Virus genome (UHGV): UHGV-0134996
Origin: a virus
Length of the DNA: 64,000 nt
Strand: one strand, 5' to 3'
The notes below the pieces were generated by a model, which saw nothing but the letters and a program-made list of their open reading frames with translations, ran no database searches and was not told where the DNA came from. Numbering within the stretch: the first letter of the stretch is position 1; the number at the start of each line of letters is the position of its first letter. Below are positions 29,423 to 31,279 of this stretch, piece after piece. The translations under genes and the position numbers were made by a program.

Positions 29423-29498
29423 TGGTGGCCCCTACCGGACTTGAACCGGTGACCGTGCGATTATGAGTCGCCAGCTCTAACCACTGAGCTAAAGGGCC
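29423..29498 (-). tRNA. tRNA with CAU anticodon (Ile2/lysidine-type or Met)
   Basis: 76 nt cloverleaf, 7-bp acceptor stem, GGTTCAAGTCC T-arm, CCA encoded; resembles E. coli ileX. Confidence 0.85.
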
Positions 29499-29501
29499 GG
29501 A

Positions 29502-29609
29502 TTACTGTTTCCTAAGTGCTTCAATGGCGCTAACAATACCGCCTACAACTATGGCAACAATGATAATGAGAACAATTGGATACTTATCTGCAAAATCCCA
29601 GAAGCTCAT
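29502..29609 (-). CDS. Small hydrophobic peptide (35 aa)
   Basis: MSFWDFADKYPIVLIIIVAIVVGGIVSAIEALRKQ; single TM helix; ends 4 nt before tRNA. Confidence 0.25.
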   Translation of the reverse strand: MSFWDFADKYPIVLIIIVAIVVGGIVSAIEALRKQ

Positions 29610-29772
29610 CACTGATCCTTCGAGGCTGGTTTAAATATCGGCCATACCAATGTTACAGCTACTGCTACCAACGCCCCGTCGGATAAAACCGACAGGATTG
29701 TGCTGGTGAAATCCACCAGCACAGATAGCACGAGAAAAACCAAAGCCAGAATTAGACGTGCTTTTATAACCA

Positions 29773-30198
29773 TCAGATATACTGTTCCAGTGGCAATTGA
29801 AGAGCCTGGGCAATTTTCTTCAATTGCTCCTGCTCTTCTGCCCCAATGCCATCCTGGTCAGCAATATCAATGCATAGGCACAGAACATCTACCGCATCAT
29901 TAGTTCCAGACACGTCAGCCAGTTCACGTAAAGCCTGGGCATTCGCTCGGCGCGGCGAGGCTTCATATTGAGCGCGAATATTGGCGCTCATCTGGGCAAT
30001 TTCACCGGAGAACGGCGCAAAGGCAGGAAGTGCTGCAATGGTTTTTTCCAATACTGCAATTTCTTTCGCATCGCAGGTGCCGTCAGAGTATGCAATGGAA
30101 TATGCGCCCCAGACAGTCGCTTCCACCGCATCACGGTTTTCCATCTTCTTGACTCCGCCAGCCGCTTTGCGGAATTTCTTTTTGAGAATGCCGAGCAT
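29773..30198 (-). CDS. TerB-like protein
   Basis: 141 aa; helical with acidic pairs typical of TerB fold; weak assignment. Confidence 0.35.
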   Translation of the reverse strand: MLGILKKKFRKAAGGVKKMENRDAVEATVWGAYSIAYSDGTCDAKEIAVLEKTIAALPAFAPFSGEIAQMSANIRAQYEASPRRANAQALRELADVSGTNDAVDVLCLCIDIADQDGIGAEEQEQLKKIAQALQLPLEQYI

Positions 30199-30374
30199 TT
30201 ATTAACCTCATTACTGGTTGGGAAATAAGGTTGCGGTGCCGGGTGCCTCCCGGTGTCCTTTGGCTGGTTATCCACCGTGGACGGGGAAATAAGGAGAAAT
30301 AATGGACAGATATAACCATTTCCCCGCGTGCGCTTAGCCGCATTCACCGCAACGGAAAGAGCATTCCTGGTGGA

Positions 30375-31124
30375 CCTGTAGATTGGGATATGAACCCGTT
30401 ACAGGAGAATACTCTTACCTGTTACGTGCTCCGTTTCGTGGAGCTAACGGCGGGTGATCGGGCCGCACCAGACTGGACTTATTTCAGCGTTATGCTCATG
30501 CCAGAGAATCAAACTGTGATGGTCGGTGCTGAACTCCGACACAGGGTTGTAGCAAGCCCCGCAAAGCGCGCACTACTGTAGTTGCGGCACATCAGCCTGT
30601 GCATTCACCACAATGTTGAGAACACTGGTTGTCACGCTGCAACGCAACATTTATTCGTAGATTGGGATATGACCCCGTTACGCCAGTGTTCTCAACGTTG
30701 TAGTGCCGGTTACGGTTCCGGCCAGGCCTCTTCCTCAACGGGGGGTTCTCCATACGGACTACCGTTTATTGGTCGTTCCTGCGGTTTATGTTGTGAAGCC
30801 AGATGCTTATCTTCTGGTTGCTTCAAAGAGCTGCACTTCATCACAACGGTAAGAGCACTCGATGCATTTAAGCCAAGCCCCATAAGGGAGAATGCCCTTA
30901 CCTGTTGTGTTGTGATGACCGGTGCTGATCTCCGGCTTGCGGTTATTTCAGACTCTCACGGGCGTTTAATTGCCCCGCCGAACAGCTCTTTTCCGCAATA
31001 GCTGCAATGTCTTTCGCGCATCAGCCTGCGCATTCATCACAACGGTAAGGGTACTTCGTAGGGATTCGAACCCTCTGCCAAGCTCGGCGATCTCCGACGT
31101 CGCAAAATACCCTTACCTGTTGTG
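30375..31124 (-). repeat. Four hairpin-flanked tRNA-like elements (30375-30405, 30605-30704, 30842-30909, 31038-31124)
   Basis: 12-23 bp inverted repeats (CACAACGGTAAG / CTTACCTGTTGTG type) enclosing T-arm-like cores; last element abuts tRNA-Thr. Confidence 0.5.
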
Positions 31125-31125
31125 C

Positions 31126-31201
31126 TGGTGCCGATTAACGGACTCGAACCGCTGACATCCTGCTTACAAGGCAGGCGCTCTACCAACTGAGCTAAACCGG
31201 C
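31126..31201 (-). tRNA. tRNA-Thr (UGU)
   Basis: 76 nt; anticodon loop CUUGUAA; GGTTCGAGTCC T-arm; CCA encoded. Confidence 0.85.
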
Positions 31202-31203
31202 AT

Positions 31204-31279
31204 TGGCGATGGTGGATGGATTTGAACCATCGACCCGTTGATTAACAGTCAACCGCTCTAACCGCTGAGCTACACCATC
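31204..31279 (-). tRNA. tRNA-Asn (GUU)
   Basis: 76 nt; anticodon loop CUGUUAA; acceptor GATGGTG/CACCATC; CCA encoded. Confidence 0.85.

What the first reader, a model, noticed from the sequence alone, without database searches (positions are those of the whole stretch)
29423..31279. Phage-encoded tRNA trio separated by four hairpin-flanked tRNA-like elements
Three intact tRNAs (CAU, Thr-UGU, Asn-GUU) lie on the minus strand upstream of ban under a perfect C1-operator-like site. Between them, four elements (30375-30405, 30605-30704, 30842-30909, 31038-31124) each consist of a 12-23 bp inverted repeat enclosing a tRNA T-arm-like core; the last abuts the 3-prime end of tRNA-Thr. They could be tRNA-derived structured RNAs, processing signals or decayed tRNA genes. 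The six-frame ORFs here (30390-31001, 31561-31896) are probably not coding.
Basis: seen in the sequence. Interest (0 to 1): 0.55.

Follow-up and report, generated by a model that had tools for sequence, protein, structure and literature searches.

The report
Structured RNA modules in P1 tRNA operon
Between the three tRNA genes of this P1-like phage lie no protein genes but an array of two kinds of conserved folded RNA, one of them an uncatalogued motif found in hundreds of unrelated phages, usually next to phage tRNA genes.

Summary
The window is a P1-like phage-plasmid (98% identical to phage JL22). The three tRNAs, the C1 operator and the hairpins are real. The hairpins are only half of the story.

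The 1.75 kb between the ban promoter and tciA is untranslated RNA on the minus strand. It holds five long-stem hairpins (H1-H5), not four. They alternate with copies of a second motif, S.

S is a four-way junction with a covarying closing stem and two conserved hairpins whose loops pair (GCUGA:UCAGC). It is not in Rfam. Only the copy that forms the tciA leader weakly resembles STnc100. Exact 20-mers from the S core hit the 120-locus limit in scans of viral contigs and of bacterial genomes. Named P1-like, lambdoid, siphovirus and N4-like phages all carry S.

S is co-oriented with tRNA genes and often lies 1-5 nt from one. H stems are wholly different in sequence between phages yet still pair. 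H interiors carry orphan T-arms or an initiator-tRNA-like anticodon hairpin.

The P1 ORFs upl and plp on the opposite strand are probably artefacts.

Function is unknown. My best inference is tRNA-like stable RNAs, cut out with the tRNAs, that also punctuate the operon.

The parts
31937..31964 (.). Bivalent C1 operator (Op72/Oban) overlapping the ban promoter; start of the operon, which is read on the minus strand
   Evidence: Exact 17-mers located; P1 annotation of the homologous site
31752..31771 (-). Intrinsic-terminator-like hairpin plus a T7 run, inside the region P1 annotates as 'dicF-like', about 180 nt downstream of the promoter
   Evidence: 8-bp stem, 5 G-C pairs, TTTTTTT; dicF-like misc_feature
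31478..31568 (-).
   Evidence: -46.1 kcal/mol, z -5.25; arm repeat D6
31204..31279 (-). tRNA-Asn (GUU)
   Evidence: 74.5 bits
31126..31201 (-). tRNA-Thr (UGU)
   Evidence: 72.9 bits
31038..31124 (-). H4: basal stem of about 20 bp with a bulged A, enclosing two hairpins, one a canonical T-arm (GGGUUCGAAUCCC); starts 1-2 nt after the CCA of tRNA-Thr
   Evidence: z -5.44; inverted repeat I8
30908..31044 (-). S4: full copy of the S motif (closing stem, GAAU, GCGCA[GGCUGA]UGCGC, variable arm, GCCGG[AGAUCAGCA]CCGGU)
   Evidence: Model R1, 94.5 bits (this copy was in the training set); 98% identical in lambdoid and Klebsiella phages
30842..30909 (-). H3: long-stem hairpin with interior CCCUUAUGGGG + CUUGGCUUAAAUGCA
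   Evidence: z -5.68; the same interior sits on an unrelated stem in L035
30789..30847 (-). S3': degenerate S remnant that keeps a P4-like hairpin (CCAGA[AGAUAAGCA]UCUGG) and closing-strand similarity
   Evidence: Direct repeats D5 and D8 with S4; not detected by R1; weak fold
30606..30705 (-). H2: 23-bp basal stem with arms compensatory to H1/H3/H4, enclosing a CAU anticodon-arm-like hairpin and a second hairpin
   Evidence: I1 (-47.9 kcal/mol, z -8.32)
30512..30615 (-). S2: full S copy with compensatory P2 (GCACA/UGUGC) and P4 (UCGG/CCGA)
   Evidence: R1, 71.2 bits (this copy was in the training set)
30428..30444 (-). Small hairpin GCUCC[ACGAAAC]GGAGC that also precedes H elements in other phages
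   Evidence: compensatory variant GCCAC..GUGGC
30347..30426 (-).
   Evidence: z -5.66
30229..30354 (-). S1: divergent S copy that forms the tciA leader; partial match to Rfam STnc100
   Evidence: R1, 20.7 bits, E 8.5e-4, not in the training set; RF02076, 39.2 bits against a gathering score of 47
29502..30198 (-). tciA (29773-30198), tciB (29609-29773) and tciC (29502-29612)
   Evidence: P1 and JL22 annotation
29423..29498 (-). tRNA with CAU anticodon (P1 trnI, ileX-like tRNA-Ile2)
27773..29143 (-). ban (DnaB-like helicase), last gene considered here

Best explanation
What it is. The stretch from the C1-repressed ban promoter to tciA is one long untranslated RNA read on the minus strand. It is built from genuine tRNAs and two families of conserved structured non-coding modules.

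H modules are 17-25-bp 'stalk' hairpins. They present small conserved hairpins: a T-arm, a CAU anticodon-arm look-alike, or other motifs.

S modules are cloverleaf-like junctions. A closing stem of about 7 bp and a 5-bp 3' hairpin are held together with a 5' hairpin by a loop-loop pseudoknot.

How it most likely works (inferred). The modules are matured like tRNAs and rRNA. RNase P and 3' trimming at the abutting tRNAs, and RNase III or RNase E at the stalks, cut the transcript into discrete, stable, tRNA-mimicking small RNAs. The same cuts separate the tRNAs from the tciABC-tRNA-Ile-ban message.

What the released RNAs then bind is unknown.

Shown: the structure, the strand, the conservation, the link with tRNAs, and the absence of credible coding. 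Inferred: the processing and the tRNA mimicry.
For: Strand and structure:
- All five H fold far better than shuffles on the minus strand and worse on the plus strand.
- The whole 926-nt array has z -6.8.

H across phages:
- A basal helix of at least 15 bp ends exactly at the 5' edge of S in 85 of 226 distinct sites, against 14 of 226 in shuffles.
- There are 84 distinct outer-arm sequences among 101 helices, and 9.6% of pairs are G.U (examples).

S covariation:
- 92.4% of cells are paired against 80.5% in shuffles.
- 116 cells changed on both sides, against 39.6 in shuffles.
- Covariation score is 0.31 against 0.087, with 0 of 500 shuffles as high. Slid controls give 25-45% paired.
- With the 3' half fixed, the P2 stem covaries: GCGUA/UACGC, GAGCA/UGCUC, GCAAA/UUUGC, GCCCG/CGGGC.
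- The loop-loop pairing has compensatory variants: ACUGA:UCAGU in D6/P7 and GGUGA:UCACC. It also has several G.U variants.

Link to tRNAs:
- 14 of 158 S sites have a same-strand tRNA within 500 nt downstream and 6 upstream. None has an opposite-strand tRNA. My estimate of the chance expectation is about 1.5.
- A tRNA starts 3-5 nt after S in BUCT541, D6, P7, L029, L076 and L112.
- In L114 a tRNA sits inside the variable arm of S.
- H4 starts 1-2 nt after tRNA-Thr.
- Orphan T-arms occur at 0.41 per kb in H+S zones against 0.021 per kb elsewhere.

Non-coding:
- No Pfam hit for the plus-strand ORFs.
- No CDS under the region in any of the 40 RefSeq records shown, of 1469 that match.

Modularity:
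- Units are gained, lost or swapped at the conserved arms among P1, P7, D6, RCS47 and this window.

Precedents:
- Y RNAs with a long terminal stem and T/D arms are co-transcribed with a tRNA. One of them is cut by RNase P and receives CCA (PMC4201824).
Against: No RNA ends or abundance data were available, so processing and stability are not shown.

Processing signals alone would not need the near-invariant S core (GAAU, the GGCUGA loop, the AGAUCAGCA loop). That conservation points to a specific partner or chemistry not captured by this explanation.

No tRNA or YrlA covariance model matches H or S.

An encoded CCA after S is present in only about a third of sites.

Many S copies are far from any tRNA. 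Some are followed by a ribosome-binding site or by a terminator.

Thermodynamic support for S alone is weak (z -0.9 to -3.4). In the global minimum-energy fold the H stems out-compete the outer part of the S closing stem.
Confidence: 0.4

Rival explanations
1. S is a functional RNA in its own right: a self-cleaving ribozyme, a ligand sensor, or a binder of a conserved host machine such as RNA polymerase, the ribosome or RNase P. It acts in cis on the operon through cleavage, read-through or translation control. The H hairpins are accessory.
For: - Near-invariant junction and loop nucleotides, with a pseudoknot, across Alpha-, Beta- and Gammaproteobacteria and their phages.
- The arm is optional and variable; the closing stem covaries.
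- S sits inside operons in large non-coding gaps.
- It lies just downstream of repressor-controlled early promoters and nut sites.
- It is followed by a terminator in 21 of 142 contexts and by a ribosome-binding site in 39 of 142.
- An intrinsic terminator sits in the ban leader.
Against: - No match to any known ribozyme, riboswitch or antiterminator family in Rfam.
- Terminators after S do not visibly overlap the closing stem in the two cases I inspected by eye, so no obvious switch.
- In P1 the S copies lie downstream of, not before, the leader terminator.
- Tandem copies and direct fusion to tRNAs fit discrete RNA products better.
- HK022, the put paradigm, has no S.
Confidence: 0.25
2. The modules are anti-defence decoys. 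They are tRNA-mimicking RNAs, expressed early together with spare tRNAs, that soak up host tRNA-targeting nucleases or other tRNA-binding immunity proteins.
For: - Orphan T-arms and an initiator-tRNA-like anticodon hairpin (GGGCUCAUAACCC and variants, on covarying stems) sit in the interiors.
- Copies are tandem.
- They are co-transcribed with tRNAs from an early, repressor-controlled promoter.
- Whole S units are 88-98% identical in phage families that are taxonomically unrelated, as expected for a widely useful accessory.
- From general knowledge, not tested here: VapC-type toxins cut initiator tRNA in the anticodon loop, and phage tRNAs are known counter-defences.
Against: - Wholly indirect. 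No defence gene or target is identified.
- H3, H5 and many H and S copies lack any tRNA-like piece.
- The S core itself resembles no host RNA that I could identify.
Confidence: 0.12
3. The modules are trans-acting, Hfq-type base-pairing small RNAs, like STnc100 and PasD, processed from the operon.
For: - S1 is a sub-threshold STnc100 match and is bridged to S by model R1.
- STnc100 and PasD are prophage small RNAs found near TerB genes and tRNAs (bioRxiv 10.64898/2026.05.13.724894).
- Some S copies carry a single-stranded tail and a terminator.
Against: - In the window, no S or H copy has its own terminator with a U-tail.
- Conservation lies in structure and loops that pair with each other, not in an exposed seed.
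- S2 and S4 do not match STnc100 at all.
Confidence: 0.1
4. The inverted repeats act at the DNA level, as recombination or cassette-exchange sites or as a MITE-like mobile element. Any RNA structure is incidental.
For: - Units are gained, lost or swapped exactly at the conserved arms among P1-like phages.
- Near-identical S units occur in phage families that are taxonomically unrelated.
Against: - G.U pairs that would be A.C mismatches on the other strand.
- Consistently stronger folding on the sense strand.
- Strict co-orientation with tRNAs and genes.
- A conserved loop-loop pairing has no DNA rationale.
- I noticed no target-site duplications, though I did not search for them. The region's ORFs are dmt, tciA-C and ban, with no transposase or integrase among them.
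Confidence: 0.06
5. The elements are decayed tRNA genes, or the region encodes the P1 proteins Upl and Plp on the plus strand. In either case the hairpins have no function of their own.
For: - P1, JL22 and RCS47 annotate upl and plp here.
- T-arm and anticodon-arm-like pieces exist.
Against: - ORF boundaries differ between annotations, and P1's plp overlaps trnT.
- No Pfam family.
- No CDS in the RefSeq records shown.
- The long stems keep pairing with completely different sequences in other phages, which neutral decay or coding constraint would not produce.
Confidence: 0.04

Closest known systems
Bacterial and phage Y RNAs (YrlA/Yrn; Rfam RF02553)
   Same: For the H modules: 80-130-nt RNAs with a long stem formed by the 5' and 3' ends, plus tRNA-like T (and D) arms. 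Y RNAs are made in polycistronic precursors with a tRNA. One is cut by RNase P and receives CCA (PMC4201824).
   Different: The YrlA model does not match H. No Ro60/Rsr gene is nearby. Only H4 has a canonical T-arm. H elements occur in tandem, alternating with S. No Ro-binding-site sequence was identified.
STnc100 (RF02076) and PasD prophage small RNAs
   Same: For the S modules: a closing stem GGUG/CACC, then GAAU, a 5' hairpin, a variable middle and a 3' hairpin. They are prophage-borne and lie near TerB-type genes and tRNAs. S1 is the leader of the TerB homologue tciA.
   Different: S1 scores 39.2 bits, below the gathering score of 47, and covers only model positions 31-147 of 206. Canonical S (S2, S4 and hundreds of others) is not hit by RF02076. 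STnc100 lacks the GCUGA:UCAGC loop pair. STnc100 and PasD are treated as trans-acting small RNAs of enterics, whereas S spans several proteobacterial classes.
Phage T4 stable RNAs 'species 1 and 2' (rnaC, rnaD) in the T4 tRNA cluster (from memory, not checked here)
   Same: Non-tRNA stable RNAs encoded inside a phage tRNA cluster, co-transcribed and co-processed with the tRNAs. Their function is still unknown.
   Different: No sequences were compared here. T4 has single copies, not an alternating array, and no known relatives across phage families.
RNase III processing stalks (rRNA operons, T7 early sites, lambda N leader) and the RNase P-processed C4 RNA of P1/P7 (from memory)
   Same: Stems of about 20 bp or tRNA-like folds between functional units of a polycistronic transcript. 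In lambdoid phages the H and S modules sit in the same place as the lambda N-leader RNase III site, and one H follows a boxA-like CGCTCTTTTTA.
   Different: Processing sites do not need conserved interiors or a conserved pseudoknot. Cleavage here is untested. The C4 model matches elsewhere in the window, not here.
HK022 put antiterminator RNAs
   Same: A cis-acting structured RNA just downstream of lambdoid early promoters that works without a phage protein (PMC9378689).
   Different: put is two stem-loops of about 70 nt with no closing stem and no loop-loop pairing. Neither model R1 nor the H-interior motif is found in the HK022 immunity region.

Membership tests
tRNA (Rfam RF00005 / ARAGORN) | Cloverleaf scoring above the 29-bit gathering score, with an anticodon called | tested here: met
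   The three annotated tRNAs score 64.7, 72.9 and 74.5 bits; ARAGORN calls CAU, UGU and GUU
tRNA (Rfam RF00005 / ARAGORN) | The same criterion applied to H1-H5 and S1-S4 (the 'decayed or intact tRNA' reading) | tested here: not met
   No RF00005 match at E up to 10 in 29200-32100 other than the three tRNAs; ARAGORN finds none
STnc100 (RF02076) | Covariance-model score at or above the 47-bit gathering score | tested here: not met
   S1 scores 39.2 bits over model positions 31-147 of 206. S2 and S4 give no hit at E up to 10
STnc100 (RF02076) | Architecture: closing stem GGUG/CACC, GAAU, 5' hairpin, 3' hairpin CCGGG..CCCGG | tested here: met
   Alignment of S1 to the model. S1 is also found by my S model at E 8.5e-4
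Y RNA / YrlA (RF02553) | Match to the YrlA model (conserved T and D stem-loops) | tested here: not met
   The only sub-threshold hit (25.6 bits against 69) overlies tRNA-Asn/Thr, not H
Y RNA / YrlA (RF02553) | Encoded next to a Ro60/Rsr (TROVE) gene | tested here: not met
   The neighbours are dmt, tciA-C and ban. The rest of the window was not scanned for TROVE
Y RNA / YrlA (RF02553) | Long stem from the 5' and 3' ends plus a T-arm-bearing multiloop | tested here: met
   H4: stem of about 20 bp plus GGGUUCGAAUCCC. Not met for H3 or H5
S motif (defined here; model R1) | Covarying closing stem, J1/2 GAAU, P2 loop GGCUGA, P4 loop AGAUCAGCA, and loop-loop pairing | tested here: met
   S4 scores 94.5 bits and S2 71.2 bits (both in the training set). 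S1 scores 20.7 bits with no loop pair. S3' is not detected
RNase III processing hairpin | About two turns (roughly 20 bp) of mostly regular double-stranded RNA | tested here: inconclusive
   Basal stems are 17-25 bp, with a bulged A in H1, H3 and H4; H2 has 23 bp
RNase III processing hairpin | Cleavage by RNase III in vivo or in vitro | not testable with these tools
   Needs end mapping in rnc+ and rnc- hosts
HK022 put antiterminator | Sequence or structure similarity to putL/putR (two stem-loops, about 70 nt) | tested here: not met
   No R1 hit and no H-interior motif in HK022 22-32 kb. The architecture differs
C4/isrK antisense RNAs (CL00128) | Match to RF01695, RF01394 or RF03163 | tested here: not met
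   The matches lie at 947-1137 and 52459-52665 only, not in 29.2-32.1 kb

The most novel reading that the evidence does not exclude
S is a new class of functional RNA: a tRNA-shaped four-way junction locked by a Watson-Crick loop-loop pair. It either self-cleaves or binds a universally conserved host machine or ligand. It moves horizontally as a 100-140-nt unit between unrelated phage families. The H elements are Y-RNA-like tRNA mimics that ride with it. Together they would form a previously unrecognised RNA layer of phage tRNA operons and early leaders.
Probability: 0.2. Interest if true: 0.9.

Novelty: new variant of a known kind. Interest (0 to 1): 0.68.

Why it matters
P1 is a textbook phage, yet 1.7 kb of its ban operon has been carried for twenty years as two doubtful ORFs (upl, plp).

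If the reading here is right, that stretch is an array of conserved RNAs. One of them (S) is a widespread, covariation-supported motif with a pseudoknot that is absent from Rfam. It occurs in P1-like, lambdoid, siphovirus and N4-like phages and in prophages across several proteobacterial classes.

This would:
- give a concrete, testable candidate for a new ribozyme, sensor or protein-binding RNA;
- suggest that phage tRNA genes commonly travel with dedicated tRNA-like companion RNAs, which bears on why phages carry tRNAs at all (codon supply or counter-defence);
- place STnc100 and PasD in a broader family;
- flag antisense ORF calls that should be removed from many phage and plasmid annotations.

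Tried and rejected
- Rfam at gathering and at E up to 10. Nothing covers H or canonical S. Spurious microRNA and plastid hits only reflect hairpins.
- YrlA. Architectural resemblance only.
- HK022 put. No similarity.
- P22. Its gene-24 leader has an S-like fold, but model R1 does not detect it.
- N-like protein. The first PL gene of the lambdoid relatives is not arginine-rich or N-like.
- A 23-codon ORF on the minus strand inside S4 (MNAQADARK...), reminiscent of lambda N's N-terminus. Rejected: the stop codon is lost in the one lambdoid relative I checked, and the region is the variable arm of S.
- Encoded RCCA after S. Present in only a minority of sites, so not a defining feature.
- boxA upstream of S. 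Only 3 of 142 sites.
- Neighbour-gene analysis by mechanical ORFs plus Pfam. Uninformative: one weak RecT hit.
- Literature search by motif sequence found nothing. The 2004 P1 genome paper was not available. The P1/hfq transcriptome preprint does not address this region.
- A formal column-by-column covariation test for H was not possible, because the stems cannot be aligned between classes. I used helix-presence against shuffles instead.
- Integron attC or MITE reading. Considered and set aside on strand asymmetry and G.U pairs.
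Full report
IDENTITY OF THE WINDOW AND CHECK OF THE OBSERVATION

The region is 98% identical over its whole length to the P1-like phage JL22. It is 97.6% identical over 94% of its length to phage P1.

ARAGORN and Rfam confirm three minus-strand tRNAs at exactly the stated coordinates:
- CAU at 29423-29498. P1 annotates this as ileX-like tRNA-Ile2.
- Thr-UGU at 31126-31201.
- Asn-GUU at 31204-31279.

The C1 operator is P1's bivalent Op72/Oban. The exact consensus ATTGCTCTAATAAATTT lies at 31948-31964 on the minus strand and overlaps a second half-site at 31937-31953.

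The order on the minus strand is: promoter and operator; a leader that P1 calls 'dicF-like' and that contains a strong terminator-like hairpin at 31752-31771; tRNA-Asn; tRNA-Thr; about 930 nt of hairpin region; tciA, tciB, tciC; tRNA-Ile2; ban.

THE HAIRPINS (H)

The first is only the inner hairpin of a larger element at 30347-30426. A fifth element lies at 31478-31568, upstream of tRNA-Asn.

Each element is a basal stem of 17-25 bp that encloses two small hairpins. H1, H3 and H4 have a bulged A in the stem.

As RNA on the minus strand they fold at -32.7 to -47.9 kcal/mol, with z-scores of -5.3 to -8.3 and 0 of 200 shuffles as stable. On the plus strand every one is 6-12 kcal/mol weaker. The reason is that several pairs are G.U on the minus strand and would be A.C on the plus strand.

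The arms of H2 (CAACGUUGAGAACACUGG / CCAGUGUUCUCAACAUUG) are compensatory relative to those of H1, H3 and H4 (CAACAGGUAAGRGYA.. / ..URCYCUUACCGUUG).

Only H4 has a canonical T-arm (GGGUUCGAAUCCC). H1 and H2 carry a conserved 19-nt loop, ACGGGNUCAUAWCCCAAUC, on a covarying stem. The same motif occurs in lambdoid PL leaders as GGGCUCAUAACCC. From memory, that is the sequence of the E. coli initiator tRNA anticodon stem-loop. Its stems there are compensatory: CCUGUA/UACAGG, GCGUG/CACGC and CCUGAUG/CAUCAGG.

THE 'SPACERS' ARE A SECOND, MORE CONSERVED MOTIF (S)

A 140-nt spacer (30908-31044) is 98% identical in lambdoid Stx phages, mEp460 and the Klebsiella siphovirus IME207. It lies in unannotated DNA in most of these and under hypothetical-protein ORF calls in mEp460.

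So did a scan of one genome per bacterial species, and so did a scan with the 3' 20-mer. The genome hits cover Enterobacterales, Pseudomonas, Xanthomonadales, Burkholderiales, Rhizobiales and others.

The aligned sequences define these parts:
- a closing stem (P1);
- the junction GAAU;
- hairpin P2, GCGCA[GGCUGA]UGCGC;
- a variable arm of roughly 25-190 nt;
- hairpin P4, GCCGG[AGAUCAGCA]CCGGC;
- one junction C, then the 3' strand of P1.

Covariation on 43 sequences is strong:
- 92.4% of cells are paired, against 80.5% in shuffles.
- 116 cells changed on both sides, against 39.6 in shuffles.
- The covariation score is 0.31 against 0.087, with 0 of 500 shuffles as high.
- Slid controls give 25-45% paired.
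- The six inner P1 pairs show three to five pair types each and almost no mispairs.

The 5' half of that alignment was fixed by the search pattern, so I repeated the scan from the 3' side. P2 then shows compensatory variants (GCGUA/UACGC, GAGCA/UGCUC, GCGAA/UUCGC, GCAAA/UUUGC, GCCCG/CGGGC) and G.U intermediates. GAAU and the GGCUGA loop stay nearly constant.

The two loops are complementary (GCUGA:UCAGC). Natural variants keep the pairing: ACUGA:UCAGU in D6/P7 and GGUGA:UCACC. Several sequences have a G.U version, UCAGU.

Geometrically, a closing stem of about 7 bp plus a 5-bp P4, a P2 'D-like' arm and a variable arm give a cloverleaf. Its elbow is a Watson-Crick loop-loop helix. That description is my inference from the pairing pattern.

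S COPIES IN THE WINDOW

A covariance model (R1), run with filters off, finds S4 at 30908-31044 (94.5 bits) and S2 at 30512-30615 (71.2 bits). Both were in the training set.

It also finds S1 at 30229-30354 (20.7 bits, E 8.5e-4), which was not in the training set.

S1 is the tciA leader. It is the only part of the region with any Rfam resemblance: STnc100, 39.2 bits against a gathering score of 47, over model positions 31-147.

A degenerate remnant, S3', lies at about 30789-30847. There are no further copies elsewhere in the window.

The array therefore reads: tRNA-Asn, tRNA-Thr, H4, S4, H3, S3', H2, S2, a small ACGAAAC hairpin, H1, S1, tciA.

P1 itself lacks S4 and H3. P7 and D6 lack H4 and S4, and they carry an S variant followed 3 nt later by tRNA-Ser(UGA). 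So units are exchanged at the conserved arms.

H AND S AS A RECURRENT COMPOSITE, LINKED TO tRNAs

In 226 distinct S sites, a helix of at least 15 bp ends exactly at the 5' edge of S in 85 cases, against 14 in shuffled controls. There are 84 different outer-arm sequences among 101 helices, and 9.6% of pairs are G.U.

The 3' arm of H and the 5' strand of P1 always overlap by 3-5 nt. The same bases could therefore pair with the 5' end of H or with the 3' end of S. In the global minimum-energy fold H wins. I have no explanation for this.

S is co-oriented with tRNA genes. Of 158 sites, 14 have a same-strand tRNA within 500 nt downstream, 6 have one upstream, and none has an opposite-strand tRNA. 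I estimate the chance expectation at about 1.5.

In BUCT541, D6, P7, L029, L076 and L112 a tRNA starts 3-5 nt after S. In L114 a tRNA sits inside the variable arm of S.

Orphan T-arm hairpins are about 20 times more frequent in H+S zones than elsewhere: 0.41 against 0.021 per kb.

S also occurs without tRNAs. It lies just downstream of repressor-controlled early promoters in lambdoid and Pseudomonas temperate phages. It lies between a P22-type nutL and an N-like gene. It lies in a 2-kb unannotated gap of the N4-like phage IME11.

Whole S units, variable arm included, are 88-98% identical in phage families that are taxonomically unrelated.

CODING

P1, JL22 and RCS47 annotate plus-strand ORFs (upl, plp) across the array. 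The boundaries differ between records, and P1's plp overlaps trnT.

The window's equivalents have no Pfam family.

In RefSeq, 1469 records in 1338 of 5426 E. coli genomes match this stretch. None of the 40 records listed has a CDS or non-coding RNA annotated under it.

These ORFs are antisense to covarying RNA helices. I regard them as artefacts.

WHAT IT MOST LIKELY DOES

Shown: two families of conserved RNA structure on the operon's sense strand, physically and evolutionarily tied to phage tRNA genes, and modular.

Inferred: the modules are cut out of the polycistronic transcript by the enzymes that mature the abutting tRNAs, and by stalk-cleaving RNases. This would yield discrete, stable, tRNA-mimicking RNAs. 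It would also separate the tRNAs from the tciABC-tRNA-Ile-ban message.

The closest precedent is bacterial and phage Y RNAs. These have a long terminal stem plus T and D arms, are co-transcribed with a tRNA, and one is an RNase P and CCA-enzyme substrate (PMC4201824). From memory, further precedents are the T4 'species 1 and 2' RNAs and the RNase P-processed C4 RNA of P1.

This explanation does not account for the near-invariant S core. That core argues for a specific partner or chemistry. I therefore give the processing and tRNA-mimic reading 0.4. I keep a ribozyme, sensor or machine-binding role for S as the main rival at 0.25. Anti-defence decoy (0.12), STnc100-like trans-acting small RNA (0.10), DNA-level element (0.06) and decayed tRNA or coding (0.04) follow.

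KNOWN OR NEW

The DNA sequence is known, since it is the P1 family. The tRNAs, the operator and tciABC are already annotated.

The H and S modules carry no RNA annotation in any of the phage records I inspected or any of the RefSeq E. coli records listed. They are not in Rfam 15. I found no paper containing the motif sequences.

A 2026 preprint links STnc100 and PasD as related prophage small RNAs near TerB and tRNAs. It does not describe the S core or its breadth.

I file the finding as a new variant of a known kind: phage-encoded, tRNA-associated structured RNAs. There is a 0.2 chance that S is a new functional RNA class.

VERDICT

Interest is 0.68. The interest comes less from the four hairpins than from the widespread S motif and the H-S-tRNA architecture they led to.

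Noticed in passing
window 31752-31771 (-): A strong intrinsic-terminator-like hairpin (8-bp stem, T7) lies inside P1's 'dicF-like' leader, about 180 nt after the ban promoter and before all tRNAs, tci genes and ban. Expression of the operon would need read-through, or the leader is a separate small RNA.
   Followed up: partly
window 947-1137 (-), 52459-52665 (-), 48354-48528 (-): There are two separate C4-type antisense RNA loci. One has an isrK-like RNA next to it and the other has the a1/b1 target element. There is also a sok antitoxin RNA. Two C4 loci in a single P1-like element seemed unusual.
   Followed up: no
window 29307-29421 (-): The 115 nt just 3' of tRNA-Ile2, upstream of ban, are about 90-94% identical to the first part of the PL leader of lambdoid and Stx phages (mEp460, Stx2a_1447). 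There they precede an H-S pair.
   Followed up: partly
window 30428-30444 (-): The small hairpin GCUCC[ACGAAAC]GGAGC precedes H1. The same heptaloop on a compensatory stem (GCCAC/GUGGC) precedes H elements in other phage contigs.
   Followed up: partly
junctions H4/S4 (31038-31044) and H2/S2 (30606-30615); many loci: The last 3-5 nt of each H 3' arm are also the first nt of the S closing stem. The 5' end of H and the 3' end of S carry the same complementary sequence. The result is a conserved three-way alternative pairing with no explanation.
   Followed up: partly
L114 7013-7204; L253 (Klebsiella phage BUCT541) 2491-2714; L006/L008 (D6, P7): In L114 a complete tRNA sits inside the variable arm of an S element. 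In the other phages a tRNA cluster starts 3-5 nt after S.
   Followed up: yes
L131 (phage P22) 6660-6800 (-): The leader between nutL and gene 24 of P22 can form an S-like fold (closing stem ACUGGCG/CGCCAGU, a 3' hairpin CCGGAA../..UUCCGG, then ACCA). Model R1 does not detect it.
   Followed up: partly
L003/L004 about 2355-2455 (-): In lambdoid PL leaders a boxA-like CGCTCTTTTTA sits directly in front of a long-stem H element whose inner loop is an initiator-tRNA-like anticodon hairpin. The first gene after it is not N-like. It belongs to an unnamed family that also follows S in Kosakonia and in a Pseudobdellovibrionaceae (Bdellovibrio-like) genome.
   Followed up: partly
window 30390-31001 (+), 31561-31896 (+); P1 upl/plp: Plus-strand ORFs annotated in P1-type records (upl, plp, and 'hypothetical' in JL22, mEp460, BUCT541 and others) lie antisense to H and S. 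They look like systematic over-annotation.
   Followed up: yes
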